The notes beneath the pieces were generated by a model, which saw only the letters and a list, made by a program, of their open reading frames with translations, did not search any database and was not told the origin of the DNA. Shown here piece by piece: positions 13,074 to 29,485 of a stretch of DNA of 64,000 bases; position 1 is the first letter of the stretch; the number at the start of each line of letters is the position of its first letter. The position numbers and the translations under genes were made by a program. Source of the stretch: Escherichia phage vB_EcoM_EC001; sequence record MN445185.1; one strand, given 5' to 3'.

Positions 13074-13094
13074 TGCAGGTTGCTCCAGTATTTT

Positions 13095-14211: not shown

Positions 14212-14226
14212 ATAAGCCTCCGTCAG

Positions 14227-14631: not shown

Positions 14632-14641
14632 TTAATCCCCC

Positions 14642-15034
14642 TTAGCGACCTGAACAGCCACCGGAGCAGGCTCCGGAACAATTGGAAGAACAAGAGCCCC
14701 CGCAACCACCTGTGCAGTTACCGGTACAGCTACTACTGCAACCACCAGAACAACCAGAGCAACCAGAACAGTTACCGCCACACGTCGAAGAACAGCTACC
14801 GATACAAGAAGCAGAACAGCTTCCTGAACAGCTCGAACAGCCATGCGAGCAACCGTTAGAGCACGTCCAAGAACATGTCCCGCCGCAATCTAGCTGTGCT
14901 TTCGTCCAACCCCCAAATCGGTCTGCCGCATTATGGGCTTTAGAGGCCACTTGCGCGTCGACGCGGGGGCCTGTCGCCATGTTAGCTTCGACTATCTGGA
15001 CGCGGTTTCTGACGTCTTTAATAGATATCGCCAT
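14642..15034 (-). CDS. Cys/Ser/Gly-rich protein (precursor-peptide-like), paralog of 14227..14631
   Basis: 130 aa. MAISIKDVRNRV... N-terminus; core DCGGTCSWTCSNGCSHGC...CSSNCSGACSGGCSG. RBS AAGGAA upstream. Confidence 0.65.
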   Translation of the reverse strand: MAISIKDVRNRVQIVEANMATGPRVDAQVASKAHNAADRFGGWTKAQLDCGGTCSWTCSNGCSHGCSSCSGSCSASCIGSCSSTCGGNCSGCSGCSGGCSSSCTGNCTGGCGGSCSSNCSGACSGGCSGR

Positions 15035-15099: not shown

Positions 15100-16302
15100 T
15101 TACTTAGTACCCGCTTCAGCTTGAACATCGTCGCGCGAGGTGAGGTTGTTGTTGACGTGAACAGCAGCCTGCACAACACCGCCATACTGTTTATGGAGGT
15201 AATTCGGGTGTGGGTTATCCGCAGCCGCATGGTTCGCCAGATTCTGGTTTGCCTGCGAAATTGCGTTGGTGTTGTTTACAACCTGAGTTTTAAGACTGTT
15301 GATTTGTCCTTGCAGGTTATCAATTTGCTGTTGGAAGTCTTTGCCCTGATTCTCAAGATCCGTGACGCGCTGATTTGTTTTATTCAGTGCAGACTGAAGA
15401 TCGTTAACCATCTTCTGTAATTGCAACACCAGAGAATTAAGGTTAGCTAATGCTAACGACATTTTCTGGTAATTTTGAGCAACCACGTTAAGCTGGTCGT
15501 TCCACGCGGCTAACGAAGCCACAATTGCATCGATGCGTTGCCCCAACGCTGTGTCTGCTGCTCTTAAGTCGCCGATATCTTTGATAGTGGCGTCAATGGC
15601 AGTCTGTACACTTTGAATCAGGGCACGAATCTCCGTCTCCGTCAGGCCATTAACCTGATGAATGTCGAGATTGTGTACGTTACCTTCGGCGTTGATGTGG
15701 GTATTTAAGGCGTCGAGGAAGTCGTTTTTCAGACCACCCAGAATACCTTTAATTTCTTCCAGCTGTACTGCAGAGCCGGAGTTAATCGCATCTTTAATCC
15801 CCGCGAGTACGGTAATGATATACTCAAAACCGTAGATATCGCCAAGGTCTTTATACGTCGGGGCGGATGGGAACGTATCGGGTACGTTTCGAAGATCCTT
15901 GAAGTCCACCACGCGGTCTTCAATTTTCAACGACGCAATCGCTTGTCGGATGCCTTCGACGTTCGCGGACTGAAAACCACCAACGACTTGCGCAGAGACT
16001 TCGATATCAGTAGGAATGGCCGAGTTAGTTACCACCACACCCATGACCACTTCGCGGTTCTTGGTCATTTTCTGATATGCAGTATGTGCAAAAATCAGTT
16101 CGTAGTCTGTACCACGTTTGTACGGGTAGACACCTGGTTTATTCGCAGCCGCCAAGCGGAAGGTATCCGCGTAGAAAGCTCCGTCAGGAAATGCAAAAGC
16201 CCGGTTAACTTTACCAGAACCTAACGTAATACGCCGCGTAACGGCGTTCGACGTTAATGTCCCGGTAAGGTCGAGCGGGTACTGATAAATGATTTCGGCC
16301 AT
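15100..16302 (-). CDS. Tail-fibre-like protein with coiled-coil region
   Basis: Start at MAEIIYQYPLDL with AAGGAG upstream (track start 16338 is a 12-codon extension). N-terminal RGTDYEL domain shared with the three large proteins; heptad-like Q/L/N-rich segment. Confidence 0.6.
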   Translation of the reverse strand: MAEIIYQYPLDLTGTLTSNAVTRRITLGSGKVNRAFAFPDGAFYADTFRLAAANKPGVYPYKRGTDYELIFAHTAYQKMTKNREVVMGVVVTNSAIPTDIEVSAQVVGGFQSANVEGIRQAIASLKIEDRVVDFKDLRNVPDTFPSAPTYKDLGDIYGFEYIITVLAGIKDAINSGSAVQLEEIKGILGGLKNDFLDALNTHINAEGNVHNLDIHQVNGLTETEIRALIQSVQTAIDATIKDIGDLRAADTALGQRIDAIVASLAAWNDQLNVVAQNYQKMSLALANLNSLVLQLQKMVNDLQSALNKTNQRVTDLENQGKDFQQQIDNLQGQINSLKTQVVNNTNAISQANQNLANHAAADNPHPNYLHKQYGGVVQAAVHVNNNLTSRDDVQAEAGTK

Positions 16303-16349
16303 TGCCAAACTCCTTTGATTGGGGCTTCCTTGCCCCATAGCGCTATCTG

Positions 16350-19300
16350 TTAGGTACGGAACATAAGATTGACCTGGATAATATCAGGCTGTTGCCATCC
16401 TCTCTCGTTCACCCAATCGTGCGCAATCGTTAACGTAAGATCATCGCCATCCCACGCCACGATCGGTGGTGGGAATAAACCCTGAGCGCCCGTGGTAACA
16501 ACCGGAATTGCACCCGCCACATCCACAAACGTGTAGCTACGGCTGTTCAAAACAACTGGTGTGCCGTAGGTCTCTCCCCCCAATGGTAAGATTTGAATCT
16601 TACTATCCGAAAGATCGGTGGTGATTGGTAGTCCCCCCGCGTCCGTGAAAAGCCAAGAGCAAATATGCTGGTTGGCCATCTCAAGCGCTGGGGAACTCAA
16701 CACAGCAGCGAAAGTAAACGTACATGGCACGCCTGCGGGCAGAGAATGCTGTTTGTGATACACGGTATGTGGTGTCGGCATTAACACTTCTGGATTTTCA
16801 TCAATGTTAACATCCTTACCTTCCGCCTCGACGTTGTAGAGAAATCTATCTACCGTATCCCATGGGGCGATGTTGACATTAAAGGTCGTTTCTACTCCCG
16901 GTGTACCTGGGACGACGAATTTACTTTGTATCACCACTATCATCATTCCTGAGGTCGGAGAGAAAGCAGGCGTAGGGATACCCACCCACTCCATTCCCAA
17001 CGATGCCGCTTCACCGTTCTCATCGGCCGTTACCGTCGCAATTGTTGTAGGATGTTTCCAAAACGCCCCCGACTTGTTTGCCTGAGTAAACGCCGGCAAA
17101 GTTTTCAAGCCTTCGAAACGTTTGGAGACCATCGGTTTACCGCGACGCTGTGCGTCAGATACGGTATAAAGCAACTGACTATCCAGATAGCCTTTCGTAG
17201 CATCGATCGACAAAGGACCCATCGCTTCTTTACGCAATGGTGCCAGTCTGCCCGTTGCCGCATCCCTTCCCACTTCCACATCATGCTTATTCTCAACCGC
17301 CGCATGTTCCAACAGTTGTTTCACCGCACCCAATCGCTTAGCATGTTCGACGTTAGTCTCGACGACTCGCGACGAGCCCGTTTTAACATACCCGATATAG
17401 AGTTCCGTTTCAGTGTCTGGATGTTGAACCACGTCCATTACGTACTTCGGTGTACCATTTTCTACCTTGGCGTGCAGGTAGAATGTCCGGTTCTGATGGT
17501 TTGTTGGAAATGCTGCGCTGAGGTCAATATACCACGTAGGCAGCTTATAAGTGCTCGAGCCGAAACGCAGGTCAACTTCCTCAGTCACATATACCAGCCA
17601 ACCTTCAGCTGTTTCCACACCAGCAATGACGACCGATTCAGTCGGGCCACTAAAATTAGGAGCCGCGACAAAATCTCTCGACGACGTTGCGATACCACCA
17701 CAATAGACGTAGTCGAGAGATGAGTTGTGTAACATCACTTGATCGCGATGTGCCAGATAAGCTGGACTGACTGGAGTGTGTGACGGTGCCATACGTCCAA
17801 CGCCGTGTGCGGCAGAAGAACGCGTCCAAGTACCATTAGACAGCGTAAGACCAACAGCGTAGTTAAGCGCACCCAAGTCGCCAATCAGGCGCAAGGTTAA
17901 CGTGTGTGGAAGATACAACCCGAACTGCGTACCATCTACCGACACCATGGTAGGTTGTCCCGGCCGGCGTGTTTTTCCTCCCGTTATCTCTCCCAACGTA
18001 GCATAGTTCAAGCCATAGTCGAGGTTGTTATAGAAGTCAAACAATGCCAATATCGCTGCCGGGAATGTTACCTGCCCGTTGCTGATTGTTGGTTTCAGTG
18101 TAAAGTAGTAGATATCCAACACGTTAACGTTGTTCACAGTACGCGTACATGCTACTTGTGCTAACGTGAGCGGTGTGGCCGTACCAATGCCGATGAACCA
18201 AACAGAGAACAGTGCCTTTCCTGCGTTATTTGCGGCAAGGATATATTCCGAAGCATAACCATTCGCAGCGCCTGCCGGTGCTCCGTCGATGATCATCTGC
18301 TTCATCTTATTCCATTCAGCTTGTGACAGCGTCAACCGATCGGCATGAATCGTGAAAGTGCCAGAAACGTTGTGGTAAGGGAATGTTTCTGGCCCTGTGC
18401 AATACCAGCCGTTTAACTCTGTACCAGGCGACGCCGGTGTAACAATGTGGCACATCTGCGACAGATTCTCGTACGTGGTAGAATCCACTACACGACGATT
18501 GTTAGTTGGTCCATACCCCACTTTACCTGAGTAAGTGGTGTTCGGATCAAACTCAACCTCAATTGCCAAACGGGAACGTGGCTGTGACAACCAGATAAGT
18601 CTGGAATTCGCTCCCAGAGTCAGTGGATACGCCATACCCAGCTCGTAGATAGAACCACGACCTTGGTTTAACGTTACCGCACTAAACCTTCTGGCAGTGA
18701 AGTTGTAGTCGCACGACAGGTACTCGTACCAACTCACACCGTCGTCTAACGTGGTAATCGTGACAATTGGCATTAGGTCACGATCGCTGGCATGTCCTTG
18801 CGAAACGATATATTTGTCTTGCGATGTTGCAAAGGTTTGGTTATTAGCTTGACCTTCGCCCCACTTCCGGCTCGGAATCCCAATCTCAGCACCACCGTTA
18901 TAACGAACCGCGGTAAGATCAGCCACAATAGGGAATCGATCAGCCCCTTCCAGCGTTACCGTCATTGAACTGCAATCAACAACAAAGCTTGACACCCATT
19001 GTTTAAAGCTAATCGTCTGCCCTGTGCTGGAGGCAAACCAGACTGTTGGCGTTAAACCAACACGAAAGTTCAGCCCATCAACACCAATCGCGTGATTACA
19101 CTCAGGACCATGTACAAAGTTAGTTGCATTGTTCCACTTCGCTAACGCGTCTGCGTAGATCTGTGTAACTGGTGCTGGGAGCGCATCGGAAGGTGCACGT
19201 TTCTGTCCCTGTCGCAGATAAACGTTTTCACCCGACGTTAATATCCCGCCTGTTAACGCATCCGCCACAAACGTGTTGCTACCACCCGGATTAAGTTCGT

Positions 19301-21533
19301 TGAGTGCGATGCTACGCATACTCACGAAATAGTTACCGGAGGTAAGCACCGTACGCAACAGGTAGACACGTTCATTACAAACAATCAAATCGTCTGTAGA
19401 AGCGTTTGGAGCCCACGGTGCTGTCGTTACTGTGCCCGCACCATTACCGTTCTTGTAATCACCCAACACCACTTTAACAACACGATGATGTTTTGCATGG
19501 TCAATCGTCCCATCGAAGATGACCAGGTAGTACGCACCGTCACTGCCTAAGCAGATCATTGCATCGGTACCGGTAATCACAATAGCAACCAGATTCACCC
19601 CAGGATACGCCGACATTCCAGCGGGTCGATAGCGTACGGACGTCTGCTGCATATTTTCCAGCGTATTGCTTGGCGACACATCAGCATAGGCGTAATAGAT
19701 AGCCCAGTCACCTGGTGGATTCCCGTTAGAACCGTTACGGAGCGAGTAAACCTTACCAGACTCGTAACGCGCCAAACCTTTCTGCCAGGTTTGGTTTTTG
19801 GTGTACCCTTCGTAGTTCCCCTGGACAGGTATAGGCAAGAAGTTATTGTTGCCGTACGATGATCCGCCAACGGTCCATGCTGGCAACAACGTAGCAATCT
19901 TGTCGTTCAGTGTACCGATTTTCTGTTCGAGCAAGAAACCCTGGCGGGCAGTAACCATCTTATCTGTTGTGGTGTCAATAGCGTCCCACAGTTTAGCCAA
20001 ACCTGTAACAGACGTGGATGCGTACGGCACGTTATCGAGATCGGCAATGGTGTGGGTGTGCGTTGAGAGTGCCTTGCCTGATAGCACGGTGCGCAACGCA
20101 TTAGTAACCGGTTTCTCCAGCGGTCCGGTATTGTTCATCTTCTCAATACCGAAATCCGACGCGGTTAAGGTTAAATGCATTTGCCCGTTTTCGTCTAACA
20201 CAAACCCTTTACCATTGACCGTATACGTGTCGTCCACATATCCGTCGAGTTTGTTCTTCAAGTCAGTAACAGCTTTTTGGGAAATCGCTGTGGACGCCGC
20301 GGCGGACGCCGAAAGGTTAGTAATCGCAAACAAGCCCTGCACAGTTGTGGTTGCTGCAGGCAGCTCCGCATTCATGTAAACTTTGTTTGTTTCTTTACCA
20401 GAGCCGTAAATCTTCAACGTGTCGCTGGATTTGAAGTAGGCGTTTGCTGGAAGTATCTTCACCGAGGTCAAGTACATCTTAACCATATCCGGTGTAACGA
20501 GATACACGCCGTTATACACAGGTGCAAGCACACCCGCATCATAATCGCCCCATTTGTCACCTGCTTTACCCGAGTGAACCCAAAGCGTGTTCAGACCAGC
20601 GCTGAACTCCGTAGCGATACCCGGTTCGTTGTTATCCTGATCAGCTTTTAATACCAGCGGTTTTGTCGAGGTGATAATGAACTTCTCACCTTTCATGCTG
20701 ATAACGTGACCGGATGTTGTTTGGAACGTAATCGCGTCGTTATTCAGAACACGCATACGGCCCAGTAAATCACCCAGGGTATTATCCAGAAGCATGTCAA
20801 CGTGTTTTTGTTGGATGCCGCTGGTAGACATTAACGTCACTAACTCTGCCAGGGTACGTCCAAACGCCTTGGTCGCATCTACGGCCTTGCCGAGTACCGG
20901 GAGTGCGCCAATGTCACCGCAGGTGTAACCATGTGCATTTTTAATCAGATGGTGTTGATACATTTCGTCATCAAACACCTGCTTACCGTTCTGATAAATC
21001 AAATCGGTAACTTCGGCAAATGCCTCATCCAGTTCGTGGGCACGTTCTAAAATGCCCAGTCGGATATCTTCCAGCGCCTTTACAATCTCATCGCGAAGGA
21101 TGGCTTCTTCGAGATCTTTTGGCGGATCGATTGGTGAAATGATCGGCGGATATTTCATCAACTCAGACCAATCGCAGTTACGCGGGTCTTTCATATCCGT
21201 CTTAACCAGATACTTGCCGATTTCAGAAGCAGGGATGCGATACTGTCGACCAACCGACAACAACTCGTATTCTAGCTCTGTGGCGTTCAGCAGCATTATG
21301 CTGCCGTATATTGCATCGTTCTCAGCCTCGGCTAATTCCTGGAAGTAATGTCCTAAGAAATAATCAAGACCTTCTATTAACTTGCGTTTGGTTCCGGTTG
21401 TTTTATCGGTAACGGTTAACGTTAACCCGATGCGATAGAACGGTGCTTCGACGGGAATGACCGTCGAATAACGGTTCGGGTAAGTAGCGGTACTGAGGGT
21501 ACCGTTAAACTGCGCCGCATCTTCTCTCGGCAT
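16350..21533 (-). CDS. Very large virion protein (tail fibre/tailspike-like), about 1727 aa
   Basis: Start at MPREDAAQ with AGGAG upstream; N-terminal domain paralogous to those of 21629..25759, 25772..29485 and 15100..16302. Confidence 0.7.
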   Translation of the reverse strand: MPREDAAQFNGTLSTATYPNRYSTVIPVEAPFYRIGLTLTVTDKTTGTKRKLIEGLDYFLGHYFQELAEAENDAIYGSIMLLNATELEYELLSVGRQYRIPASEIGKYLVKTDMKDPRNCDWSELMKYPPIISPIDPPKDLEEAILRDEIVKALEDIRLGILERAHELDEAFAEVTDLIYQNGKQVFDDEMYQHHLIKNAHGYTCGDIGALPVLGKAVDATKAFGRTLAELVTLMSTSGIQQKHVDMLLDNTLGDLLGRMRVLNNDAITFQTTSGHVISMKGEKFIITSTKPLVLKADQDNNEPGIATEFSAGLNTLWVHSGKAGDKWGDYDAGVLAPVYNGVYLVTPDMVKMYLTSVKILPANAYFKSSDTLKIYGSGKETNKVYMNAELPAATTTVQGLFAITNLSASAAASTAISQKAVTDLKNKLDGYVDDTYTVNGKGFVLDENGQMHLTLTASDFGIEKMNNTGPLEKPVTNALRTVLSGKALSTHTHTIADLDNVPYASTSVTGLAKLWDAIDTTTDKMVTARQGFLLEQKIGTLNDKIATLLPAWTVGGSSYGNNNFLPIPVQGNYEGYTKNQTWQKGLARYESGKVYSLRNGSNGNPPGDWAIYYAYADVSPSNTLENMQQTSVRYRPAGMSAYPGVNLVAIVITGTDAMICLGSDGAYYLVIFDGTIDHAKHHRVVKVVLGDYKNGNGAGTVTTAPWAPNASTDDLIVCNERVYLLRTVLTSGNYFVSMRSIALNELNPGGSNTFVADALTGGILTSGENVYLRQGQKRAPSDALPAPVTQIYADALAKWNNATNFVHGPECNHAIGVDGLNFRVGLTPTVWFASSTGQTISFKQWVSSFVVDCSSMTVTLEGADRFPIVADLTAVRYNGGAEIGIPSRKWGEGQANNQTFATSQDKYIVSQGHASDRDLMPIVTITTLDDGVSWYEYLSCDYNFTARRFSAVTLNQGRGSIYELGMAYPLTLGANSRLIWLSQPRSRLAIEVEFDPNTTYSGKVGYGPTNNRRVVDSTTYENLSQMCHIVTPASPGTELNGWYCTGPETFPYHNVSGTFTIHADRLTLSQAEWNKMKQMIIDGAPAGAANGYASEYILAANNAGKALFSVWFIGIGTATPLTLAQVACTRTVNNVNVLDIYYFTLKPTISNGQVTFPAAILALFDFYNNLDYGLNYATLGEITGGKTRRPGQPTMVSVDGTQFGLYLPHTLTLRLIGDLGALNYAVGLTLSNGTWTRSSAAHGVGRMAPSHTPVSPAYLAHRDQVMLHNSSLDYVYCGGIATSSRDFVAAPNFSGPTESVVIAGVETAEGWLVYVTEEVDLRFGSSTYKLPTWYIDLSAAFPTNHQNRTFYLHAKVENGTPKYVMDVVQHPDTETELYIGYVKTGSSRVVETNVEHAKRLGAVKQLLEHAAVENKHDVEVGRDAATGRLAPLRKEAMGPLSIDATKGYLDSQLLYTVSDAQRRGKPMVSKRFEGLKTLPAFTQANKSGAFWKHPTTIATVTADENGEAASLGMEWVGIPTPAFSPTSGMMIVVIQSKFVVPGTPGVETTFNVNIAPWDTVDRFLYNVEAEGKDVNIDENPEVLMPTPHTVYHKQHSLPAGVPCTFTFAAVLSSPALEMANQHICSWLFTDAGGLPITTDLSDSKIQILPLGGETYGTPVVLNSRSYTFVDVAGAIPVVTTGAQGLFPPPIVAWDGDDLTLTIAHDWVNERGWQQPDIIQVNLMFRT

Positions 21534-21567
21534 TGCAAACACTCCTAATCTGTAATAAAACGGAGAC

Positions 21568-21625
21568 CGCCCTCCCAATAACGGAAGGGCGGTTTACCTA
21601 CGGACTACCCGCCCGTAGGCAGTCC
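21568..21625 (-). terminator. Hairpin region between two large minus-strand genes (possible attenuator)
   Basis: ACCGCCCT...AGGGCGGT stem (21568-21575, 21589-21596) followed on the minus strand by CTCCGTTTTATTAC. Confidence 0.4.
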
Positions 21626-21628
21626 GTC

Positions 21629-24600
21629 CTAAGAGGCCCACTCACCCGAGTTGTTGCCTTCGTTTCTACGTTCAGTATCCAACGTTTGTAAAATCCAATC
21701 CCATGTCCTGGTGGGGATGTGGAATGGATTACGCTTCTCAATGAGAATCGTCTCGCCACCCGTGCGAAGTTCCACCGGTGTCGTTTCAGTAATCACGAAC
21801 ATCGGATTACCACTACTACCCACACCGTTAATAGTGAACTTCGCTTGTAGCGGCGGCACAGAACCTTCCGGAGGCACGAACACGATGTGAATTGGCTGCA
21901 TCGGTTTCGTGCGGGCAAGAGTCCCAGATATCTGAACAGCTGTTGTCGATGCACTGAAAGGTATAACATTACCCGGAATTTTCTCACTACCCACGACGAT
22001 ATATCCAGGGTAGTTAGAGAGCATTGTCCCATTTACCGACACAAAACGCTCAGTTTGAGTTGGGCGATAAGCCCGCATAAAGCCGTACTTCCATTCACCA
22101 CCGTTAGACGTATAGTCTGCAGGAGCCGACTCAAGTAGCGGAGCACCACGTTTCTGCAGCCCTTTATAAAACGGCGCTGGGAGTTTACCGTTCGGTGCAA
22201 GTTCCGGATAACCCTCACTTGCAGCAGACATCGTGATGTATTCCGTAACCGGGTGATCAACGTTATCTCCAAATGACGCAAAAGGTACCGTTGTTACTGT
22301 CATCTCCTCGTGGCCGGAAGACTGTCTATCTGGTGTCCTTTCAATATACGACTCAAACAGTGAACGTAAATAATGGAAACGATTTATATCCACATCTGAG
22401 ATGATCGGCTGCATCAAACCGTGGTTAATAGTCACGTTGTCTCCAGTTTCAATACCGGAAACGTGGATGGCTAGCGCCCCACCTTTAAAGTAATCGATCG
22501 CATCAAACGGAATGTCGTATTCCATTTCGTAAACCTGCACCAGCGGATTGGCTATCAACTTAGAAACCATTGAGATGCGCAGTACCTGCGTATCAACAAT
22601 GTATCGATAACGTACAAGCCAACGATCTCCAAGCGGCGCAAGCTCACTATCGGTATGAACCGAAAGAAAATCTAAACACTCGGTAGATTGGCTCGTCAGG
22701 TTTTTAATTACCCTCGGATTTTCAAGCACCTTATTTGTAACACTGCCCTGCGTGGTCGAGATGATGCCTCCAGTTGCTTGGTTATAAGGAGACGTGATGA
22801 AGCCACAATTCAATTCTGGACGATTGCCACTCCATCTCAGTACCCTAGTCTTGCTTTTATCATCTGCAGACGGGGCCATGAAGTTTAATGTGATATCGCG
22901 ATCGCGAACAGTTTGCGCTTCCGACAAATCAACATCGACCACCACAGAACCTTCAAACGTCGCCATCCCTTTTTCTTTCGGGTTGCTTGGTGTAAACCAG
23001 CAGTACGGTGATGCGCTTTCTGTGGAGACAACCGCTCCAACAAACACTAGGCTTGAAATGGTGCTATCAAATTTATAATCGAATAACCCTCGGTCTAATC
23101 GAATATAGTGGTTACCAGAAACTGGACTATTAGGGTACGCATAAAGCCACTGTTTAGGCAACGGATCGACTTTGTTTAGCGGTAACATTTTTGGGTTATC
23201 CGTCAACGACCAGTCGGCATTACTCACTCCGTGTGCCAGACGTGTTTCGAAGTGCCGTTTAAGTTCGGACGCCATGCCAAAATCAAACGTCGTTTCAAAC
23301 TCGTAAGTCGTACCTGCAACCAATCCCGTCTCTGGTACATCAATATGTCCGATATAGCCGCGTTCCAAGTTAATACCTTCCGTGTCCACAATAGGTTCGG
23401 CGCGCGAATATAACGCATCGGTTATCATGTTCACATAGAGGTAATGCCTTAAACCATTCGGCGTCTTAACAAACTCCTGCAGGCGGGCAACTTTGGTGTT
23501 TTTATCCGAGGCCCCAACCGCAAAGTCACCGTCGTAAATTGTGAAACGAATTGCGGCTGCTTTAGCGCTATCGTTACACTCGGCACGGAATGCTAAGCAG
23601 TGTTGCTTCCACCCCTCCTTGACAGTCGCCTCCAGATACCCCGCTTCTGTAATACCCGCACCGATAATTTCACCGTCCAGATAAACAGAAACAGCACCAC
23701 CGCCACGAACCCAAATCCGCAGCTTACCAGAGTCGCAACGAACCCACGTTTTCGCCAAGAGGTTAACGACTGACAAATCACCCATTCCGGTTGTCGTTAA
23801 ACCAATCTGCGCACCGTAGTTCGTTTCCGGGACGGCAACCTCAAACCCACTAAAATCAATACCGGCACCGGTATTAATTACCGCGTTCTGCCACGTTCTT
23901 TCCATACGGTTATCTGGAGAGAACCACTGGAACATCGGTGTGGTTTGCAGGTCTATCGAACCAGATACCGTCCCCTCTTTACGTGCGCCATTTAACAGAT
24001 AGAAATAATTCAAATCCGTTATGGCGAGTGTGGTACGTGCTGACCCCACAGTCCAAGTCTTACCACGCACAGCGGCAAAATCGGTCACGGAATCCTCTTT
24101 CGCGTTTGCTAGCGCAGCTGCAACTACGTCTAAACGTTTTGACAAATCGTTCAGAACGTTCGGGGTAACGCCGCGATTACCCGACAAGCCGTTTAGGTTG
24201 GTAGAATATCGAGCGATACCGGGAACTGTTTGAGAAGCCGTTGGGATCTGTAAATCGGCGAAGTTGTGATGATGGCCTTTATCGCTAAGACCGGTAACTG
24301 CTTCTGCCAACGCATCAGAAAGTGGTTTATCGACGTCAGCTGTGTTATCAGCCAAGTCCAGACCCAAATCCTTTTTCGTTAGCGTTCGGCTACCAGTGTC
24401 CATCGGCTGGTTATTCAGCAGCGTTGTCTTCCTGACGTACGAAGACAGATCACCCTCGTACGGTAAGAGCGAAGCTGGGGTGGCTGCTTGTCCTTTGACT
24501 ACATCGCTCGGCTTATCAGTCAGCGTCACAACGCCGGGTTCAGAGGTCGTGGCGGGTTTGGCTGTAACCTTCCCGGTGACGGGATCGGCTTTTGACCCTT

Positions 24601-25759
24601 TGCCCGTGAAAGTAATACCGTTCACCCCGCTAATGTACAGTTTGTTGTCATCCGGGTCAACGGTACCGCCGCCGGTACCAGGGTCTTGTTGATAGCCCAT
24701 GAGAGCGGTGGTGGTCAGCAACGTTGTTCCGTTAAGTGTCAGCTTATCCATCCCCAAGGCACTGCCGGTTGACTCAATACGTAACGTATTGATGCCTGCT
24801 TTCCACTCCATAAACCGGACGGTTCCAGTAGTGTCAGCATACCCACACGCCAGCACGACAGAGCCATTAGATTTAAGAGTGAATGCCTCAGCAGAGAACA
24901 CAATTTCGGATTCGCCAGCAGGAGAACGGAACAGGGCACGAGTACCAGATATCGTCGCGTTAAACACCCCTTTGGATTCTTTCGATACCCATTTAGAAAT
25001 GTACTTGTCGATATCCGATTGTTGCAGGCCCAGTGCACGGACCTCGCTGGTTAATTGACGCAACGTCTTTCCATACGCCAGGAAAGTATCTGGCGTTTTC
25101 AGGTTGACAGGATGCGCCCCGGCCTGCGCCGCGGTAGTCCCATGAGGGTTAGTGGACGCAATGTGTCCGGGGTAGTTAAATGTGGCGATTTCAGTTCCTA
25201 AGCCCAGAACCGTATCTTTCAGCTCGGTAAGCTTTTCACGAATCTGCTCGTTGGCCGCCCCGGCATCTAACTCCACATCATGCACTGCAGAGGCAACATA
25301 CTTTTTATTCAGCATGTCTGACCAAGCTACCGCTGCGGGGGTGGCTGGGTACAGGGAAGGTCGATTACCTAAAAGCAGCCAATCTGCAGCCGTTGGATTG
25401 TTGAGAGCCTTAATTAACTCATCCAACATCTCAATCAGACCACTGTAAAACGTACCCCCGAGCATCTGGCCTTCAAAGACCACTGCACCACGCAGTTTAG
25501 GGTTAATAAGATGCACCCCACAGAACACCGGGGTCGTCACCGAGTCGTCCAACGGCGTTAAAGCATACTCCAGCTCATAGTCCGTCCCGCGGGTAAGCGG
25601 TATGGTCGAGCCGGCGAGCATTACCACCAATCCTTCGAAAAATGGGCGATGATCTAGCATCACCACCCGATCGTTAGGATTGTCGGAGTCGATGATACGT
25701 TCCTCGATGAAGTGACACTCGGGATTTACACCCCGAGGATCGTAAGGATACGTTTTCAT
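21629..25759 (-). CDS. Very large virion protein (tail fibre/tailspike-like), 1376 aa
   Basis: RBS AAGGAG; N-terminal LTRGTDYELEYALTP shared domain. Confidence 0.7.
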   Translation of the reverse strand: MKTYPYDPRGVNPECHFIEERIIDSDNPNDRVVMLDHRPFFEGLVVMLAGSTIPLTRGTDYELEYALTPLDDSVTTPVFCGVHLINPKLRGAVVFEGQMLGGTFYSGLIEMLDELIKALNNPTAADWLLLGNRPSLYPATPAAVAWSDMLNKKYVASAVHDVELDAGAANEQIREKLTELKDTVLGLGTEIATFNYPGHIASTNPHGTTAAQAGAHPVNLKTPDTFLAYGKTLRQLTSEVRALGLQQSDIDKYISKWVSKESKGVFNATISGTRALFRSPAGESEIVFSAEAFTLKSNGSVVLACGYADTTGTVRFMEWKAGINTLRIESTGSALGMDKLTLNGTTLLTTTALMGYQQDPGTGGGTVDPDDNKLYISGVNGITFTGKGSKADPVTGKVTAKPATTSEPGVVTLTDKPSDVVKGQAATPASLLPYEGDLSSYVRKTTLLNNQPMDTGSRTLTKKDLGLDLADNTADVDKPLSDALAEAVTGLSDKGHHHNFADLQIPTASQTVPGIARYSTNLNGLSGNRGVTPNVLNDLSKRLDVVAAALANAKEDSVTDFAAVRGKTWTVGSARTTLAITDLNYFYLLNGARKEGTVSGSIDLQTTPMFQWFSPDNRMERTWQNAVINTGAGIDFSGFEVAVPETNYGAQIGLTTTGMGDLSVVNLLAKTWVRCDSGKLRIWVRGGGAVSVYLDGEIIGAGITEAGYLEATVKEGWKQHCLAFRAECNDSAKAAAIRFTIYDGDFAVGASDKNTKVARLQEFVKTPNGLRHYLYVNMITDALYSRAEPIVDTEGINLERGYIGHIDVPETGLVAGTTYEFETTFDFGMASELKRHFETRLAHGVSNADWSLTDNPKMLPLNKVDPLPKQWLYAYPNSPVSGNHYIRLDRGLFDYKFDSTISSLVFVGAVVSTESASPYCWFTPSNPKEKGMATFEGSVVVDVDLSEAQTVRDRDITLNFMAPSADDKSKTRVLRWSGNRPELNCGFITSPYNQATGGIISTTQGSVTNKVLENPRVIKNLTSQSTECLDFLSVHTDSELAPLGDRWLVRYRYIVDTQVLRISMVSKLIANPLVQVYEMEYDIPFDAIDYFKGGALAIHVSGIETGDNVTINHGLMQPIISDVDINRFHYLRSLFESYIERTPDRQSSGHEEMTVTTVPFASFGDNVDHPVTEYITMSAASEGYPELAPNGKLPAPFYKGLQKRGAPLLESAPADYTSNGGEWKYGFMRAYRPTQTERFVSVNGTMLSNYPGYIVVGSEKIPGNVIPFSASTTAVQISGTLARTKPMQPIHIVFVPPEGSVPPLQAKFTINGVGSSGNPMFVITETTPVELRTGGETILIEKRNPFHIPTRTWDWILQTLDTERRNEGNNSGEWAS

Positions 25760-25771
25760 TCAAAAATCTCC

Positions 25772-28700
25772 TTAATCACGAATAATAAGTGTTCGACCTG
25801 ACGTGTTTTGCGGATTGAACGTCATCATCTTGGATGGGTGTGTCGCCAGCGGAATTTTACCTGTATCCACTGGTCGGAACGAACTGTATGAATAGTTGCA
25901 CATCGCGCTGTTCATCTCATTAATCGTTGAACCTGCTTCCACCACGCCAGTAAAGAATCTTGCGCGGTTTAAGCCGGAATAGTTAATCGCATAGTCAAGG
26001 AACGTGGCGTAATAACGATTCTTTATCGGCATCGTGTTCAGGTTAGCGTAAGTCAAACGCGCTTCTGTGTCGGAACTAAACAAACCACCCGCGCCGTGAT
26101 AAATCGGCGTACTCGGATCGGTAATCAGTTTCGTCAAGTCGATATAATCAGGACGGAGACGGGTAGACAAATCCTCAGTCCACGACTCGCCGGTCGACTG
26201 CAAGGTGTATCTCAGCGTCTTTGTTGTCGCGGTTAGCGTCAGCTCAAAGTTGATCGTTTTGGAATCGATGTTAATCGTTCCCTCGAACGAAATACCGTCC
26301 GCTGTTCGCGTGTGGCTGAAACGCACCGACGGATTAAGTGCCGTCCAGTCATGGCCGGAACCAGTAACACCATTCAAGCCAATAACAACCTGCGCAGCAC
26401 GTCCGTAGTTAACCGCGATTCCCGCATACGTGCTCACGCCGCCTGGAGTGGTAATACGCCCTGCGGTGCGTGCGACGAGTACAGAAATACGGTGCATGAA
26501 CGTGGCCGAGTGATGGCAACACCCAATTACCGTTTCTAGCACACTGTCCGCTGTTGCGGTTAAAGGTGTCCACGTTGCGGTAATGCCGTTATTCTGGAAC
26601 ATCGGGAATGTGTTGTGGACAAAACGATAATCGGTTACAGATAAACTGGTTGTTTTAAACGTCCATTTATCAGCAGCCGGATCGTAGTCCGCTTTCAACA
26701 TAGGCGTATAGCTGCTAGCCTGCGCGTAACGCCAATCAGCATCTATACGTTTTGTACCCGGTGCGCCCGTGGACCACACAGGCCCGCCTGTACCGTAAGT
26801 AAATCCGAATTCAGCTTGCGTCATGCTCCGTCGAATATGGGCGTTATCATCCTCGATATGCTCGCCTAATTCACGAAACTCACCTAAACGCGTCACGTTG
26901 CGGATTTCTACAAAAACCACACCGGTTTCACTGGTGATGATGGAACCTATTTTGGTCATCGTCTCAGTTTCTGCCGTGTTTGGATTTTCGTAGATAATGT
27001 ACTTGCCATCATCGCCCGCCGCGTCAACATACACGCCAAACTCAGCATCTTCGTGCGTCGCTGGGAATAGCTCCGCCAAGTTAAATGTGGAGAGAGGTAC
27101 TTTGTACTCGCGACCAACGAAATAATCGTTCGCTTTAATAGTAACCATCCAGTCGGTGTAAGTGATGCCGTTTTCAATGATATCCGTGCCGGGTAAACCG
27201 TAACGAATAATGTTGATTGAAGCACCAGAGTCGACTGTCTTCGCAACCTTCTCTATCTCTGTGATAGCGTCCGCCTGTCGGATGACCACACCGCCGTCTA
27301 ATGCCAGCGTGGCATCGTCAACCACGGTGCCGAACTGTACTAAACCGAACTCCGTCGTTGTTGCACGCTTAATCCCGAACGCAGCAGAAGTGTGTTTGTG
27401 ACCGACGACTGCATACTTGTCCAGCTCAGCTTGTTGGAGCGGGGAAATCGGCAATTGCACATCTGGGATGTTCTGTACGTTCGATAAGCCGAAGTTAGTT
27501 TTATCGATGTAAATAGAACTCGTCAGTGGCATGTCGTTGATGTACGATTTAACGGCAACCAACTTGCCCGTAAACTGCTGATCCAATTTCTTGATGAGTG
27601 CCGGCGTTGCGGCCAAGTCCTCACGATCACCGAATTCAGTAGCCAACAAACGGACAGCCATCAGGCCAAGGTCGTCGGACTCCGGTGGAACAAAAGTACA
27701 AATGAACGGAACAGACTGAATACCGTTACCGTTAATAGTTACAGTAGCTGTGGATGTTCCGTAAAACAGTCCATCACCACCTGACTCGTTACCCGGCAAA
27801 TACGGCCCGACCGTAGTAGGGTCCAACAGTTTCTTACCGTTGAACTCCAATCCACGGGAATCCGGATAAAGGATGAGTTGGTTAGCACCGCCTTGCCATG
27901 TGATCGGGTTGTTCCCGGCGTTAACGGTTTGCGAATCGCGTCCAATAAAACGGATAACCCTCGGGTCAACCGTGAATTGTGCACCCACGCCTTCAGACTC
28001 ATCGGTACCCACTGCCGACGTTATCGAAGTCAGGCCAGGCTTCATACCGAACGTGCCGTTGATAGACTGTGCAGCCGCCGGTAAACGTAAAAGCTTATTC
28101 GCCAGCGTTGACAGTTTCGGCAACAGATTGTTAACGTAATCTGTCAGCTGCGGTTGCGTTTTTCCGTATACCAGTGTCGCGTCCGAAGCAATACCGTTAT
28201 TCTCCAAAGCACGGATTGCGCCCCACGAATCGCGATGTGGGTTATCCTTGCGCGGCACGTGCGCATGTGCCGGCGCATCACGGTACAGTTTATCGACAAT
28301 CTGGTGATATTTTACCAGCAGCTGGTACACGTCATTGTTAACGTCAGGTGCCGGTGCGCCTGGTAATGAACGAATCTGGACGTAATCGTTCTCACCTGCC
28401 CACCAGTTTAGGTTGACGCCCGATTTAAACTTCAACCATTTTGCGACATCAGTTTTCTGATACCCTGGTGCAAATTCGCTCGGTGGGTTGTCAACGTTAA
28501 AGCTGTAGTTAACGGTTTGCTTACTTGTTTTAACGATAATGTCGTAAACGCCGTTACCTTCGCGTCTGACCACGCTAAGCTCAATATCACCCGCCAACTC
28601 GGTATCGGTCAGGCCAGTCGTCAACGTATAGCTGTAATTAGACGAACCAGAACCAATCGCCGTCGTTAAGGTAAGATAAATCGCGCGTTGCTTCAACTGA

Positions 28701-29485
28701 AGACGCAGGATACTTGTCCCACCGTTTGCGTAACAGAGCATCCAATCGATCAACTCGCCTGGGTTTAACGTTGTTTCCGGTGGAATGCTCGGTAAACGGT
28801 ATTTTACCGCTAACGAATACGCATCGAATGTCGTATTCTGGTAAGATAACGAATAACGACGACGTGACGCGTTATACGTGTAGCCGCCAGTACCGTCGTA
28901 CGTCGCATACTGCTCGGATGTGATAAGCGTGACGCCGGCGCGATATTGAAGGTCTAACGTGTTACGAGCAATCGGGTCAACGCGACTGATCGCTTCACCG
29001 AGCTTAGCACCAACCGCAACAATGGCTTCCATCAACTCAGATTCGCCACGCCAGTTTTCCCAATCGAACTTAATATCGACCGGTGGGAAATATAAATCCC
29101 CAATGACATTATCCCATTGGCAGTCTACGGGATAGCGATCTTTATTCGCTTCTCGTTCTGCGGCGATCATTTCTGCAGTGGCTTCACCGATACCAATTGC
29201 ATGGTAATCGAGTGTAAAGCCACTCTGATATTTCGGGTTGGTAATCCACACGCCGCCGTGACAAACATGGCCAGTGCGTGCCATGCCCGTAACGTACGCA
29301 TGGGTGATGACGTAATCATCACCTAATGTTAATTTCTTGCCGCCACTCTTGACCACCAGGGATGTGGTATAAAAGGGGGCGTGTGCGGGGAACAGCATCC
29401 GGTACTTAGTACCGATCGGCGTTACCGCTTCACCGGTCTGCATATTCCCCGGTTCTTGATAGTGCGGGTCAGGGACGACAGCCAT
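25772..29485 (-). CDS. Very large virion protein (tail fibre/tailspike-like), 1237 aa
   Basis: RBS AAGGAG; first gene of the minus-strand operon; shared N-terminal domain (PFYTTSLVV...LGDDYVITHAY). Confidence 0.7.
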   Translation of the reverse strand: MAVVPDPHYQEPGNMQTGEAVTPIGTKYRMLFPAHAPFYTTSLVVKSGGKKLTLGDDYVITHAYVTGMARTGHVCHGGVWITNPKYQSGFTLDYHAIGIGEATAEMIAAEREANKDRYPVDCQWDNVIGDLYFPPVDIKFDWENWRGESELMEAIVAVGAKLGEAISRVDPIARNTLDLQYRAGVTLITSEQYATYDGTGGYTYNASRRRYSLSYQNTTFDAYSLAVKYRLPSIPPETTLNPGELIDWMLCYANGGTSILRLQLKQRAIYLTLTTAIGSGSSNYSYTLTTGLTDTELAGDIELSVVRREGNGVYDIIVKTSKQTVNYSFNVDNPPSEFAPGYQKTDVAKWLKFKSGVNLNWWAGENDYVQIRSLPGAPAPDVNNDVYQLLVKYHQIVDKLYRDAPAHAHVPRKDNPHRDSWGAIRALENNGIASDATLVYGKTQPQLTDYVNNLLPKLSTLANKLLRLPAAAQSINGTFGMKPGLTSITSAVGTDESEGVGAQFTVDPRVIRFIGRDSQTVNAGNNPITWQGGANQLILYPDSRGLEFNGKKLLDPTTVGPYLPGNESGGDGLFYGTSTATVTINGNGIQSVPFICTFVPPESDDLGLMAVRLLATEFGDREDLAATPALIKKLDQQFTGKLVAVKSYINDMPLTSSIYIDKTNFGLSNVQNIPDVQLPISPLQQAELDKYAVVGHKHTSAAFGIKRATTTEFGLVQFGTVVDDATLALDGGVVIRQADAITEIEKVAKTVDSGASINIIRYGLPGTDIIENGITYTDWMVTIKANDYFVGREYKVPLSTFNLAELFPATHEDAEFGVYVDAAGDDGKYIIYENPNTAETETMTKIGSIITSETGVVFVEIRNVTRLGEFRELGEHIEDDNAHIRRSMTQAEFGFTYGTGGPVWSTGAPGTKRIDADWRYAQASSYTPMLKADYDPAADKWTFKTTSLSVTDYRFVHNTFPMFQNNGITATWTPLTATADSVLETVIGCCHHSATFMHRISVLVARTAGRITTPGGVSTYAGIAVNYGRAAQVVIGLNGVTGSGHDWTALNPSVRFSHTRTADGISFEGTINIDSKTINFELTLTATTKTLRYTLQSTGESWTEDLSTRLRPDYIDLTKLITDPSTPIYHGAGGLFSSDTEARLTYANLNTMPIKNRYYATFLDYAINYSGLNRARFFTGVVEAGSTINEMNSAMCNYSYSSFRPVDTGKIPLATHPSKMMTFNPQNTSGRTLIIRD

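What the first reader, a model, noticed from the sequence alone, without database searches (positions are those of the whole stretch)
15100..29485. Four fibre-like proteins (about 400, 1727, 1376 and 1237 aa) sharing one N-terminal domain
All four consecutive minus-strand products share an N-terminal segment (PFY/FF ... L.V ... G(T)DYEL/DYFL/DYVI ... H.Y) and then diverge completely. This is the modular pattern of multiple receptor-binding fibres or spikes that dock to one virion site through a common anchor domain. Three proteins over 1200 aa in a row is an unusually large adsorption apparatus and suggests a broad or complex host range.
Basis: seen in the sequence. Interest (0 to 1): 0.45.

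Follow-up and report, generated by a model that had tools for sequence, protein, structure and literature searches.

The report
Jumbo-phage baseplate fibre paralogs, shared anchor
These four genes are the already described tail-fibre paralogs (gp167-gp170) of an SPN3US-like giant Salmonella/E. coli phage, and their common N-terminal domain is the anchor that fixes the fibres to the edge of the baseplate, probably as one mixed six-chain complex rather than as four separate fibres.

Summary
Four consecutive minus-strand genes (400, 1727, 1376 and 1237 aa) share an N-terminal domain plus a helix, and all six pairwise profile comparisons are significant. The claim that they "then diverge completely" is wrong. 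The three giants are collinear over about 565 residues, with a roughly 200-residue insertion in the 1237-aa protein. Two of them share a further 125-residue module.

The window is a Seoulvirus, 95-97% identical to SPN3US and Lh1B, and the genes are SPN3US gp167-gp170. Published proteomics places all four in the virion. gp168-170 are already described as "paralog family C", absent from tailless particles and related to phiKZ gp131. I confirmed homology of the shared domain to phiKZ gp131/133/134/135 (E 6e-25 to 8e-12). I also confirmed conserved divergent synteny with the gp130 homologue (gp171).

In phiKZ cryo-EM, six such N-domains and a six-helix bundle sit beneath each of 12 gp130 copies. 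The paralogs therefore probably co-assemble, possibly as gp167 trimer + gp168 + gp169 + gp170, rather than acting as alternative fibres. Re-analysed spectral counts fit roughly 3:1:1:1.

The gp169 C-terminal half models as lectin-like beta-sandwiches and carries a variable cassette. Verdict: real, mostly already known, moderate-to-low interest.

A CXXX-repeat peptide/radical-SAM cluster immediately downstream deserves separate attention.

The parts
15100..16302 (-). Protein A, the SPN3US gp167 orthologue (400 aa). It has the N-terminal anchor domain, a helix, and a helix of about 139 residues (coiled-coil stalk).
   Evidence: 99% aa identity to SPN3US gp167. phrog_2163 E 1e-107. AF2 mean pLDDT 82.7: beta domain 1-125, helices 160-204 and 222-360. 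Detected in SPN3US virions, SC/M 1.90.
16350..21533 (-). Protein B, the SPN3US gp168 orthologue (1727 aa). Order of parts: anchor domain, helix, fibre-shaft module to about aa 565, central module (phrog_3573), module X (aa 1302-1428), C-terminal part.
   Evidence: SPN3US gp168 is a tail protein and 'expected essential'.
21629..25759 (-). Protein C, the SPN3US gp169 orthologue (1376 aa). It has the anchor domain, helix and shaft to about aa 569, then an all-beta, lectin-like C-terminal half.
25772..29485 (-). Protein D, the SPN3US gp170 orthologue (1237 aa). Order of parts: anchor domain, helix, insertion of about 200 aa, shaft, module X (aa 769-894), C-terminal part.
15913..16302 (-). N-terminal anchor domain of A (aa 1-130).
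   Evidence: Alignments A1-A3. AF2 pLDDT above 90.
21159..21533 (-). N-terminal anchor domain of B (aa 1-125).
   Evidence: BLASTP to phiKZ gp131 E 2.5e-8.
25370..25759 (-). N-terminal anchor domain of C (aa 1-130).
   Evidence: BLASTP to phiKZ gp131 E 8.5e-7.
29111..29485 (-). N-terminal anchor domain of D (aa 1-125).
   Evidence: BLASTP to phiKZ gp131 E 7e-9.
15691..15825 (-). Helix of A (aa 160-204) that follows the anchor domain. It is the candidate contribution to the six-helix bundle.
   Evidence: AF2. It aligns with the helix-rich segment of B, C and D and of phiKZ gp131/135. The six-helix bundle itself is seen in phiKZ.
15223..15639 (-). Long helix of A (aa 222-360), a probable trimeric coiled-coil stalk.
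   Evidence: AF2 single helix, pLDDT 88-96. Only coiled-coil-type weak matches in Pfam and PDB.
19839..21533 (-). Stem of B (aa 1-565), collinear with the stems of C and D.
   Evidence: hhalign B-C E 2e-51 over 1-565/1-569. Landmark spacing NxH to HxH is 293 aa.
24053..25759 (-). Stem of C (aa 1-569), collinear with the stems of B and D.
   Evidence: Landmark spacing 292 aa.
27191..29473 (-). Stem of D (aa 5-765), collinear with the stems of B and C apart from the insertion.
   Evidence: hhalign C-D E 3e-28, B-D E 1.7e-21. Landmark spacing 281 aa.
28286..28903 (-). Insertion in D (about aa 195-400), between the helix and the shaft.
   Evidence: Offset of about 205 aa in the B-D and C-D alignments. 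One D orthologue (P0019, 1021 aa) lacks it.
17250..17630 (-). Module X in B (aa 1302-1428).
   Evidence: Homologous to D 769-894: BLASTP 2.7e-9, hhalign 1.2e-14.
26804..27181 (-). Module X in D (aa 769-894).
22280..23152 (-). Variable cassette in C (about aa 870-1160). It lies inside the lectin-like beta region.
   Evidence: 63-73% nt identity and 73% aa identity to SPN3US, against at least 95% in the flanks. At least three alleles exist among Seoulviruses. The window allele equals Lh1B (100%), SaP7 and JN03.
29553..30815 (+). SPN3US gp171 orthologue (420 aa), homologue of phiKZ gp130. It is the baseplate-periphery protein under which the fibres attach, and it is transcribed divergently from gene D.
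   Evidence: BLASTP to phiKZ gp130 E 4.6e-15 over the full length. The homologue lies directly next to and divergent from the paralog array in all 10 phage loci examined. SPN3US gp171 is an essential tail protein. For the role of phiKZ gp130.
21566..21593 (-). Strong terminator-like hairpin (12-bp stem, 8 GC pairs) followed by a T-rich tail (5 T in the 8 bases after the stem), between genes C and B.
   Evidence: Function not tested.

Best explanation
The four genes encode the peripheral baseplate fibre set of an SPN3US-like (Seoulvirus, Chimalliviridae) jumbo phage. They are the counterparts of SPN3US gp167-gp170 and members of the phiKZ gp131-like paralog family.

Shown here:
- Each protein starts with the same beta domain of about 125 residues, followed by a linker and a helix.
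- This module is homologous to the N-termini of phiKZ gp131, gp133, gp134 and gp135.
- In every relative found, the module sits at the extreme N-terminus of proteins of very different lengths.
- The gene array always lies next to, and divergent from, the gp130/gp171 homologue.

Taken from the literature:
- The SPN3US orthologues are virion proteins. gp168-170 are stated to be absent from tailless particles.
- In phiKZ, six such N-domains and a six-helix bundle sit under each of the 12 gp130 copies at the baseplate periphery.

Inferred:
- In this phage the N-domain plus helix of the four paralogs likewise co-assemble into a six-chain anchor under gp171, at 12 sites.
- The most economical composition is a gp167 homotrimer, held together by its 139-residue coiled coil, plus one chain each of gp168, gp169 and gp170.
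- The collinear 565-residue stems of the three giants would form a heterotrimeric shaft, after which the three chains diverge into different distal arms.
- The distal arms, at least that of gp169 with its lectin-like beta-sandwich domains and variable cassette, contact the host surface. Flagella are reported as the SPN3US receptor.

My probabilities: identity and anchor role about 0.9. Co-assembly of different paralogs in one anchor about 0.6. The specific 3:1:1:1 composition about 0.4.
For: Identity: 94-97% nt identity to Seoulviruses over the whole 14.4 kb, with gene-for-gene correspondence to SPN3US gp167-170.

Shared module.

Homology to phiKZ: a profile built only from the four window proteins hits gp131 (6e-25), gp135 (1e-23), gp134 (6e-13) and gp133 (8e-12) at their N-termini. 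The enlarged profile gives 1e-48 to 2e-23.

Distribution of the family:
- 3171 representative clusters, always with the module at residues 1 to about 200, in proteins of 159-1860 aa.
- 288 isolate records, all listed ones jumbo phages of 210-320 kb apart from a single 17-kb bin.

Synteny with the gp130/gp171 homologue in 10 of 10 loci, with 2-4 paralogs per array.

Virion location and abundance in SPN3US.

phiKZ cryo-EM attachment site, hetero-hexamer proposal and 12 fibres.

Non-redundancy: phiKZ gp131-135 all lack transposon insertions. SPN3US amber mutations were found in genes 168 and 169.

Stoichiometry: I calibrated published spectral counts per mass on four proteins of known copy number. 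This gives about 24 copies of gp167 against 8-14 of gp168-170. The gp167/giant ratio is 1.45-2.44 in four data sets, against 1.9 predicted for 3:1.

In-register stems: the spacing between landmark motifs is 293, 292 and 281 aa.

Variable cassette in gp169.
Against: - No structure or interaction data exist for this phage or for SPN3US at the fibre sites.
- The phiKZ composition itself is a 'candidate' model. Predicted N-domains were docked into maps of 4.4-4.6 A or lower resolution. The figure legend in that paper speaks of three N-terminal segments while its text speaks of six.
- The number of paralogs per genome varies from 2 to 4, so a 3+1+1+1 arrangement cannot be universal.
- Spectral counting is crude. 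The same calibration gives about 5 copies for gp171, where 12 are expected.
- Equal stem lengths follow from homology alone.
- The N-domain model has no significant match among solved structures, so its docking mode could not be checked.
- The lectin-like similarity is at fold level only (7-14% identity). No sugar-binding residues were examined.
Confidence: 0.6

Rival explanations
1. The four proteins are four independent homotrimeric fibres or spikes. Each docks on its own to equivalent baseplate sites through the common anchor domain, giving the phage several alternative receptor-binding proteins and a broad host range.
For: - The N-terminus is conserved and the C-termini differ.
- The same anchor is found on proteins of very varied length and C-terminal content across thousands of relatives.
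- The central module of B occurs fused or unfused in other phages, showing modular exchange.
- Phages with only two paralogs could fill a six-chain site with two homotrimers.
Against: - phiKZ sites contain six N-domains with a six-helix bundle, interpreted as mixed.
- All phiKZ paralogs are individually essential. SPN3US amber mutations in genes 168 and 169 came from conditional-lethal screens.
- Spectral counts suggest gp168-170 are near portal-like copy number (about 8-14), below what homotrimers at 6 or 12 sites would give (18 or 36), and that gp167 is more abundant.
- The giants share 565 collinear residues rather than only an anchor.
Confidence: 0.25
2. Each site holds two homotrimers, and different pairs occupy the two kinds of site. 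For example, gp167 trimer with gp168 trimer at unit-1 sites, and gp169 trimer with gp170 trimer at unit-2 sites. That would give 18 copies of each protein.
For: - phiKZ has two classes of attachment site, unit1 and unit2, six of each.
- Relatives with two paralogs fit a 3+3 arrangement.
- Trimer formation is the norm for phage fibres (general knowledge).
Against: - The two phiKZ sites look almost indistinguishable.
- gp167 is consistently 1.5-2.4 times more abundant per unit mass than the giants.
- The three giants resemble one another far more than any of them resembles gp167, which this pairing does not explain.
Confidence: 0.15
3. The giants are mainly architectural baseplate proteins (braces of the very wide outer baseplate) and not receptor-binding fibres. 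Host recognition would lie elsewhere.
For: - SPN3US papers call them only 'baseplate/tail fiber candidates'.
- No receptor-binding assay exists.
- Other candidate host-recognition filaments (the DUF7941 family) were proposed for the related phage Goslar.
Against: - The stems contain motifs and weak profile matches typical of tail fibres: PF12789, phrog_35419, phrog_23595, and the W..P..FPP..H.H repeat shared with the R2 pyocin fibre and a tail collar fibre.
- The gp169 C-terminal half has lectin-like domains and an allele-variable cassette, the usual mark of a surface-contacting part.
- The phiKZ density shows fibres emanating from these anchors.
Confidence: 0.1

Closest known systems
SPN3US 'Paralog family C' (gp168, gp169, gp170) plus gp167 (Ali et al. 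2017, PMC5694885; Thomas et al. 2016, PMC5105663)
   Same: These are orthologues: 96-99% aa identity outside the gp169 cassette, with the same order and strand. They are virion proteins. gp168-170 are absent from tailless particles and are called baseplate/tail-fibre candidates related to phiKZ gp131.
   Different: - The publications list three members. gp167 carries no paralog-family label, yet it clearly has the same N-terminal module.
- The window carries a different allele of the gp169 cassette from SPN3US, identical to that of E. coli phage Lh1B.
phiKZ gp131/gp133/gp134/gp135 fibre complex under gp130 (Sycheva et al. [quoted passage not shown]
   Same: - Homologous N-terminal domain plus helix.
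- Four paralogs in an array divergent from the gp130 homologue.
- One paralog class differs from three mutually similar ones: phiKZ has one 771-aa and three of about 460 aa; here there is one 400-aa and three giants with collinear stems.
   Different: - No detectable similarity beyond the N-terminal region.
- The seven-bladed propeller of gp131 is not found (no PDB hit).
- The size relation is inverted. Here the three similar chains are the giants (1237-1727 aa) and the odd one is the short coiled-coil protein.
- By BLASTP, A is closest to gp135/gp134, and B, C and D are closest to gp131.
Multi-RBP phages with shared N-terminal adaptor domains (for example the CBA120 tailspikes TSP1-4, the G7C gp63.1/gp66 branching, and Klebsiella jumbo phage PhiK64-1). 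This comparison is from my own knowledge and was not tested here.
   Same: A conserved N-terminal attachment module with divergent C-terminal receptor-binding parts.
   Different: - Those systems use homotrimeric spikes attached to one another in a branched tree.
- Here the evidence points to a six-chain mixed bundle.
T4 short tail fibre gp12 and other trimeric fibre shafts
   Same: The phiKZ authors regard the twelve fibres as functional analogues of the T4 short tail fibres. The stems share short fibre motifs. The Moabite annotation reports an HHpred match of its paralog to gp12.
   Different: There is no significant sequence match to gp12 in my PDB searches. The attachment protein and the anchor fold are different.

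Membership tests
phiKZ gp131-like baseplate fibre paralog family (equivalent to SPN3US paralog family C) | N-terminal beta domain homologous to the gp131 N-terminus, located at the extreme N-terminus | tested here: met
   The four-sequence profile hits gp131/135/134/133 with E 6e-25 to 8e-12. BLASTP: A-gp135 7e-13, B-gp131 2.5e-8, C-gp131 8.5e-7, D-gp131 7e-9.
phiKZ gp131-like baseplate fibre paralog family (equivalent to SPN3US paralog family C) | A helix after the N-domain that can contribute to the six-helix bundle | tested here: inconclusive
   AF2 predicts helices 160-204 in gp167, and the segment aligns in all four proteins and in phiKZ gp131/135. No model was made for B, C or D, and bundle formation cannot be tested with these tools.
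phiKZ gp131-like baseplate fibre paralog family (equivalent to SPN3US paralog family C) | Gene array adjacent to and divergent from the gp130 homologue | tested here: met
   gp171 at 29553-30815 (+) against gene D ending at 29485 (-). gp171-gp130 BLASTP E 4.6e-15. The same arrangement is found in 10 of 10 loci.
phiKZ gp131-like baseplate fibre paralog family (equivalent to SPN3US paralog family C) | Presence in the virion tail, at the baseplate periphery | not testable with these tools
   Literature only. SPN3US gp167-170 were detected by MS, with gp168-170 absent from tailless particles. Immunogold and cryo-EM location exist for phiKZ.
phiKZ gp131-like baseplate fibre paralog family (equivalent to SPN3US paralog family C) | C-terminal seven-bladed beta-propeller (specific to gp131 itself) | tested here: not met
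   No sequence match of A-D to any PDB chain, including the gp131 C-domain. The gp169 C-terminal model consists of beta-sandwich domains. This feature is not shared by the phiKZ paralogs either, so it does not define the family.
Tailspike/depolymerase (right-handed beta-helix) receptor-binding proteins | Parallel beta-helix or glycosidase catalytic domain | tested here: not met
Lectin-like / carbohydrate-binding beta-sandwich domains | Jelly-roll or ConA/galectin-like beta-sandwich fold | tested here: met
Lectin-like / carbohydrate-binding beta-sandwich domains | Demonstrated or conserved sugar-binding site | not tested
   Sequence identity to the matched structures is 6-14%. Binding residues were not compared.

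The most novel reading that the evidence does not exclude
The three giant proteins gp168, gp169 and gp170 form one heterotrimeric fibre. Their collinear 565-residue stems make a single shaft that splits into three different distal arms. At each of the 12 baseplate sites this fibre is paired with a gp167 coiled-coil homotrimer in a six-chain anchor. A genetically encoded heterotrimeric, three-armed receptor-binding fibre would be unusual among tailed phages, where fibres are almost always homotrimers.
Probability: 0.35. Interest if true: 0.6.

Novelty: already known. Interest (0 to 1): 0.25.

Why it matters
The fibres at the baseplate edge are the host-recognition end of nucleus-forming jumbo phages, which are being developed for therapy and biocontrol. 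SPN3US is the genetic model of the group.

Knowing that the shared N-terminal module is a co-assembly anchor has a practical consequence. A host range cannot be re-engineered by simply adding or removing one gene. The whole set has to be kept compatible. The gp169 cassette is the obvious place to look for specificity.

The paralog family and its baseplate location were already published. What this analysis adds is:
- gp167 as a fourth member;
- the extent of the shared stems;
- the variable cassette and the lectin-like folds;
- a stoichiometry argument for a mixed complex.

Tried and rejected
- Single-sequence searches of A-D against PDB sequences gave nothing, or only coiled-coil noise.
- A 33-sequence profile of the N-module matched only the short 'W..P..FPP..H.H' fibre repeat (tail collar fibre 9d93, R2 pyocin fibre 6ct8), not the domain itself.
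- No Pfam family covers the N-module.
- A leave-one-out HMM built from only three window sequences failed to recover B. I replaced it with orthologue-enriched profile comparison.
- An ungapped comparison suggested 3-20% aa identity in the gp169 cassette. This was an artefact of two compensating 1-residue indels. The gapped alignment gives 73%.
- A search with the gp169 C-terminal half found only full-length orthologues and no Pfam domains. There is therefore no evidence that this part is exchanged with other protein contexts.
- The sigma-70 promoter scan is uninformative for a phage with its own RNA polymerases: 7 sites were found against 22 expected.
Only two models could be made, so the C-terminal parts of B and D and any multimer were not modelled.
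- I considered chance similarity or low-complexity artefact for the N-terminal motif and rejected it.
Full report
**What is there.** The region holds four consecutive minus-strand ORFs with only short gaps between them. I call them A to D.
- A: 15100-16338 (annotated start 16302, 400 aa).
- B: 16350-21578 (ATG start 21533, 1727 aa).
- C: 21629-25759 (1376 aa).
- D: 25772-29485 (1237 aa).

The 14.4-kb stretch is 94-97% identical to Seoulvirus genomes. The best match is Escherichia phage vB_EcoM_Lh1B at 97%, and Salmonella phage SPN3US is at 94.8%. The four genes correspond one to one to SPN3US gp167, gp168, gp169 and gp170. The window therefore comes from an SPN3US-like, nucleus-forming jumbo phage.

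**Check of the observation.** The shared N-terminal segment is real.
- BLASTP gives B-C 1e-23, A-C 3e-8 and B-D 6e-7. phmmer agrees.
- All four match the N-terminal part of phrog_2163, with E from 1e-107 to 2e-14.
- A-B and A-D are not significant by BLASTP. A three-sequence leave-one-out HMM recovered A, C and D (E 7e-6, 3e-4, 3e-6) but not B.
- With orthologue-enriched profiles, all six pairs are significant: A-B 8.8e-14, A-C 8.8e-25, A-D 2.4e-10, B-C 2e-51, B-D 1.7e-21, C-D 3e-28.
- No other ORF of the window carries the domain.

The second half of the observation, that the proteins 'then diverge completely', is wrong for the three giants.
- They stay collinear to about residue 565: B 1-565, C 1-569, D 5-765.
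- D carries an insertion of about 200 residues right after the helix. One D orthologue lacks this insertion.
- B 1302-1428 is homologous to D 769-894 (E 1e-14) and weakly to C 760-846.
- Two landmark motifs (N.H..T and H.H) are 293, 292 and 281 residues apart in B, C and D.
- A shares only the first 210-250 residues or so.

**What the shared module is.** A profile made from the four window proteins alone finds 3171 representative clusters in the 1.84-billion-protein library. In every one of the 150 best hits listed, the match covers residues 1 to about 200, in proteins from 159 to 1860 aa long. Among isolate genomes, tblastn finds it in 288 records. All listed ones are jumbo phages of 210-320 kb apart from a single 17-kb bin, from Pseudomonas, Erwinia, Salmonella, Vibrio, Serratia, Aeromonas, Klebsiella, Ralstonia and others.

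The same four-sequence profile hits the N-termini of phiKZ gp131 (6e-25), gp135 (1e-23), gp134 (6e-13) and gp133 (8e-12), but not gp132. The enlarged profile gives 1e-48 to 2e-23.

The gene next to D on the other strand (29553-30815, SPN3US gp171) is homologous over its full length to phiKZ gp130 (4.6e-15). In phiKZ, gp130 is likewise divergent from gp131-135. I fetched eight further diverse loci: Xoo-sp14, RsoM3USA, Moabite, Deimos-Minion, pTD1, PCH45, OBP and Aeromonas D9. In all ten phages the gp130/gp171 homologue lies directly beside, and divergent from, an array of two to four proteins carrying the module.

No Pfam family covers the module. The only PDB sequence match of the profile is the short 'W..P..FPP..H.H' fibre repeat that follows the domain.

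- bacterial lectin-type adhesins;

No beta-helix or catalytic domain was matched.

**What is already published.**
- Thomas et al. 2016 list gp168 as a tail protein, 'expected essential', and a member of a paralog family related to phiKZ gp131. They list gp171 as an essential tail protein homologous to phiKZ ORF130.
- Ali et al. 2017 define 'Paralog family C' as gp168, gp169 and gp170. These are low-abundance virion proteins, absent from tailless particles, and described as 'baseplate/tail fiber candidates'.
- Their supplementary table also lists gp167 as a virion protein: 85 spectra, 70% coverage, no 'Head' label and no paralog label.
- The 2026 cryo-EM atlas of phiKZ reports fibre-attachment sites beneath each of the 12 gp130 copies. 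[quoted passage not shown] The authors propose a 'candidate' hetero-hexamer of gp131 x3 + gp133 + gp134 + gp135, and twelve fibres in all.
- A phiKZ transposon screen found no insertions in gp131-135.
- Amber mutations in SPN3US genes 168, 169 and 171 were present in pools of conditional-lethal mutants.
- SPN3US is reported to use flagella as its receptor.

**How it most likely works.** The N-domain plus helix is the anchor. By homology, synteny and the phiKZ structure, it docks under gp171 at the baseplate periphery. Because each phiKZ site contains six such chains, and because the paralogs are individually required, the four proteins are more likely parts of one complex than four alternative fibres.

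The anatomy suggests a natural division. gp167 has the long coiled coil expected of a homotrimer. The three giants have collinear, equally long stems rich in fibre motifs (weak PF12789, phrog_35419 and phrog_23595 matches). This is what three chains of one heterotrimeric shaft would look like.

I re-analysed the published spectral counts.
- I calibrated on the major capsid protein (1560 copies), sheath and tube (264 each) and portal (12). Counts per mass scale as copy number to the power 0.585.
- On that scale, gp167 is about 24 copies, gp168 about 9, gp169 about 14 and gp170 about 8.
- The gp167/giant ratio is 1.45-2.44 in four independent samples. The prediction is 1.9 for 3:1 and 1.0 for 1:1.

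This fits 36:12:12:12 better than 18 each. The method is rough, however: it gives about 5 for gp171, where 12 are expected. The composition is therefore an inference, which I put at about 0.4. Co-assembly of different paralogs I put at about 0.6. Identity and anchor role I put at about 0.9.

The variable number of paralogs (2-4) across the family shows that the composition must differ between phages. A 3+3 arrangement of homotrimers is possible in the two-paralog phages.

**Host-contact parts.** Against SPN3US, the four genes are 96-99% identical in protein. The exception is one cassette in gp169 (about aa 870-1160, window about 22280-23152), which is 63-73% identical in DNA and 73% in protein.
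- At least three alleles of this cassette circulate among otherwise near-identical Seoulviruses.
- The window allele is 100% identical to that of E. coli phage Lh1B and 98.6-98.7% to Salmonella phages SaP7 and JN03.
- SPN3US and most other phages carry a second allele. A group of SPFM phages carries a third.
- The cassette falls inside the lectin-like beta domains.

This localized divergence is what one expects of a receptor-contacting surface. The last 200 residues or so of B are also more variable than the rest. The central part of B (phrog_3573, aa about 547-1405) occurs in Xoo-sp14 and Aeromonas D9 as a separate protein without the anchor, and in Deimos-Minion fused to it. Modules have therefore been fused to and split from the anchor during evolution.

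**Comparison and novelty.** These genes are members of a described family in a described phage genus. The paralogy, the virion location and, since 2026, the anchor role of the N-domain are all in the literature. What is added here:
- gp167 as a fourth member in Seoulviruses;
- the 565-residue collinear stems and module X;
- the conserved gp130/gp171 synteny across ten genera-level lineages;
- the gp169 cassette and its lectin-like folds;
- the stoichiometry argument.

An array of proteins over 1200 aa is normal for this family: OBP has 1246 and 1274 aa, D9 has 1243, pTD1 has 1081, and Deimos-Minion has 1163. It is not an outlier. I rate the finding as already known and of modest interest. The heterotrimeric three-armed fibre reading is the part that would be interesting if shown.

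**Seen in passing.** Immediately downstream of gp167, on the same strand, lie two paralogous small ORFs: 14642-15034 (130 aa) and 14227-14631 (134 aa). Each has a leader-like N-terminal part of about 50 residues and a C-terminal run of about 80 residues made of C-x-x-x repeats rich in Ser, Gly and Thr.
- SPN3US records annotate neither ORF. Their 'gp166' is a different reading frame over the second one, with an implausible Ala/Val/Arg-rich translation.
- Both ORFs give near-threshold matches to TIGR04114, 'Cys-rich repeat-containing protein', the target of a radical SAM maturase (18.9 and 17.1 bits against a cut-off of 20).
- The radical-SAM protein two genes further on (10838-12166) has as its best match TIGR04115, 'radical SAM peptide maturase, CXXX-repeat target family' (3e-36). 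Its next match is the ranthipeptide maturase PapB (1e-32).
- A second radical-SAM gene (12159-13073) and an unknown 295-aa gene lie between them.
- Homologues of the small ORFs are few and mostly sit on contigs of jumbo-phage size, for example Erwinia phage Stratton.

This looks like a phage-borne CXXX-repeat peptide modification system placed at the end of the fibre operon. I found no paper describing it. It deserves its own evaluation.

Noticed in passing
window 14227-15034 (-), with 10838-13982 (-): Two paralogous small ORFs (14642-15034, 130 aa; 14227-14631, 134 aa) lie just downstream of gp167. Each has a leader-like N-terminus and about 80 residues of Cys-x-x-x repeats. Next come an unknown 295-aa gene and two radical-SAM genes. 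The ORFs are near-threshold matches to TIGR04114 (CXXX-repeat radical-SAM target). The 442-aa radical-SAM protein best matches TIGR04115 (CXXX-repeat peptide maturase, 3e-36) and PapB. This looks like a RiPP-like peptide modification system in a jumbo phage, next to the fibre genes. No paper describing it was found.
   Followed up: partly
window 14223-14558 (-), equivalent to SPN3US gp166: The SPN3US annotation 'gp166' (111 aa) is a different frame over the second CXXX-repeat ORF and translates to an Ala/Val/Arg-rich sequence. It is probably a mis-annotation. The first CXXX-repeat ORF (phrog_6085, E 1e-40) is not annotated at all in the SPN3US or Proteus phage 7 records.
   Followed up: partly
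window 22280-23152 (-), gp169 aa ~870-1160: An allele-variable cassette: 73% aa identity to SPN3US, against at least 96% elsewhere. At least three alleles exist among near-identical Seoulviruses. The window allele is identical to that of E. coli phage Lh1B.
   Followed up: yes
window 21566-21593 (-): A strong terminator-like hairpin (12-bp stem, 8 GC pairs) followed by a T-rich tail (5 T in the 8 bases after the stem), in the 95-nt gap between gp169 and gp168. It might attenuate or process the fibre transcript.
   Followed up: no
proteins P0160-P0269 (homologues of gp169): A large set of 1392-1394-aa proteins only 35% identical to gp169 sits on contigs of 200-227 kb in assemblies labelled Salmonella enterica, E. 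coli and Shigella flexneri. This suggests that a second, related jumbo-phage lineage is frequently co-sequenced with enterobacterial isolates.
   Followed up: no
L005 26332-29268, L012 21877-24633, L008 20553-24044: The central module of gp168 (phrog_3573, aa ~547-1405) occurs as a separate protein without the anchor domain in Xoo-sp14 and Aeromonas D9. In Deimos-Minion it is fused to the anchor. This indicates gene fusion or fission within the fibre cluster.
   Followed up: partly
L006 (Ralstonia phage RsoM3USA) 23725-34343: Radical-SAM genes (a moaA-like gene and two 'radical SAM domain' genes) and a 2OG-Fe(II) oxygenase also follow the fibre paralogs in this distant jumbo phage. No Cys-repeat ORF was found there.
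   Followed up: no
window 9662-10333 (-): The SPN3US gp161 orthologue carries DUF4376 (E 2e-9), at the far end of the same minus-strand gene block.
   Followed up: no
records LR535902-LR535921 (SPFM phages): Automated annotation names members of this array 'YomR' and, in SPFM2, 'Chromosome partition protein Smc'. Which gene carries each label was not checked. I suspect the Smc label is the coiled-coil gp167 and is misleading.
   Followed up: no
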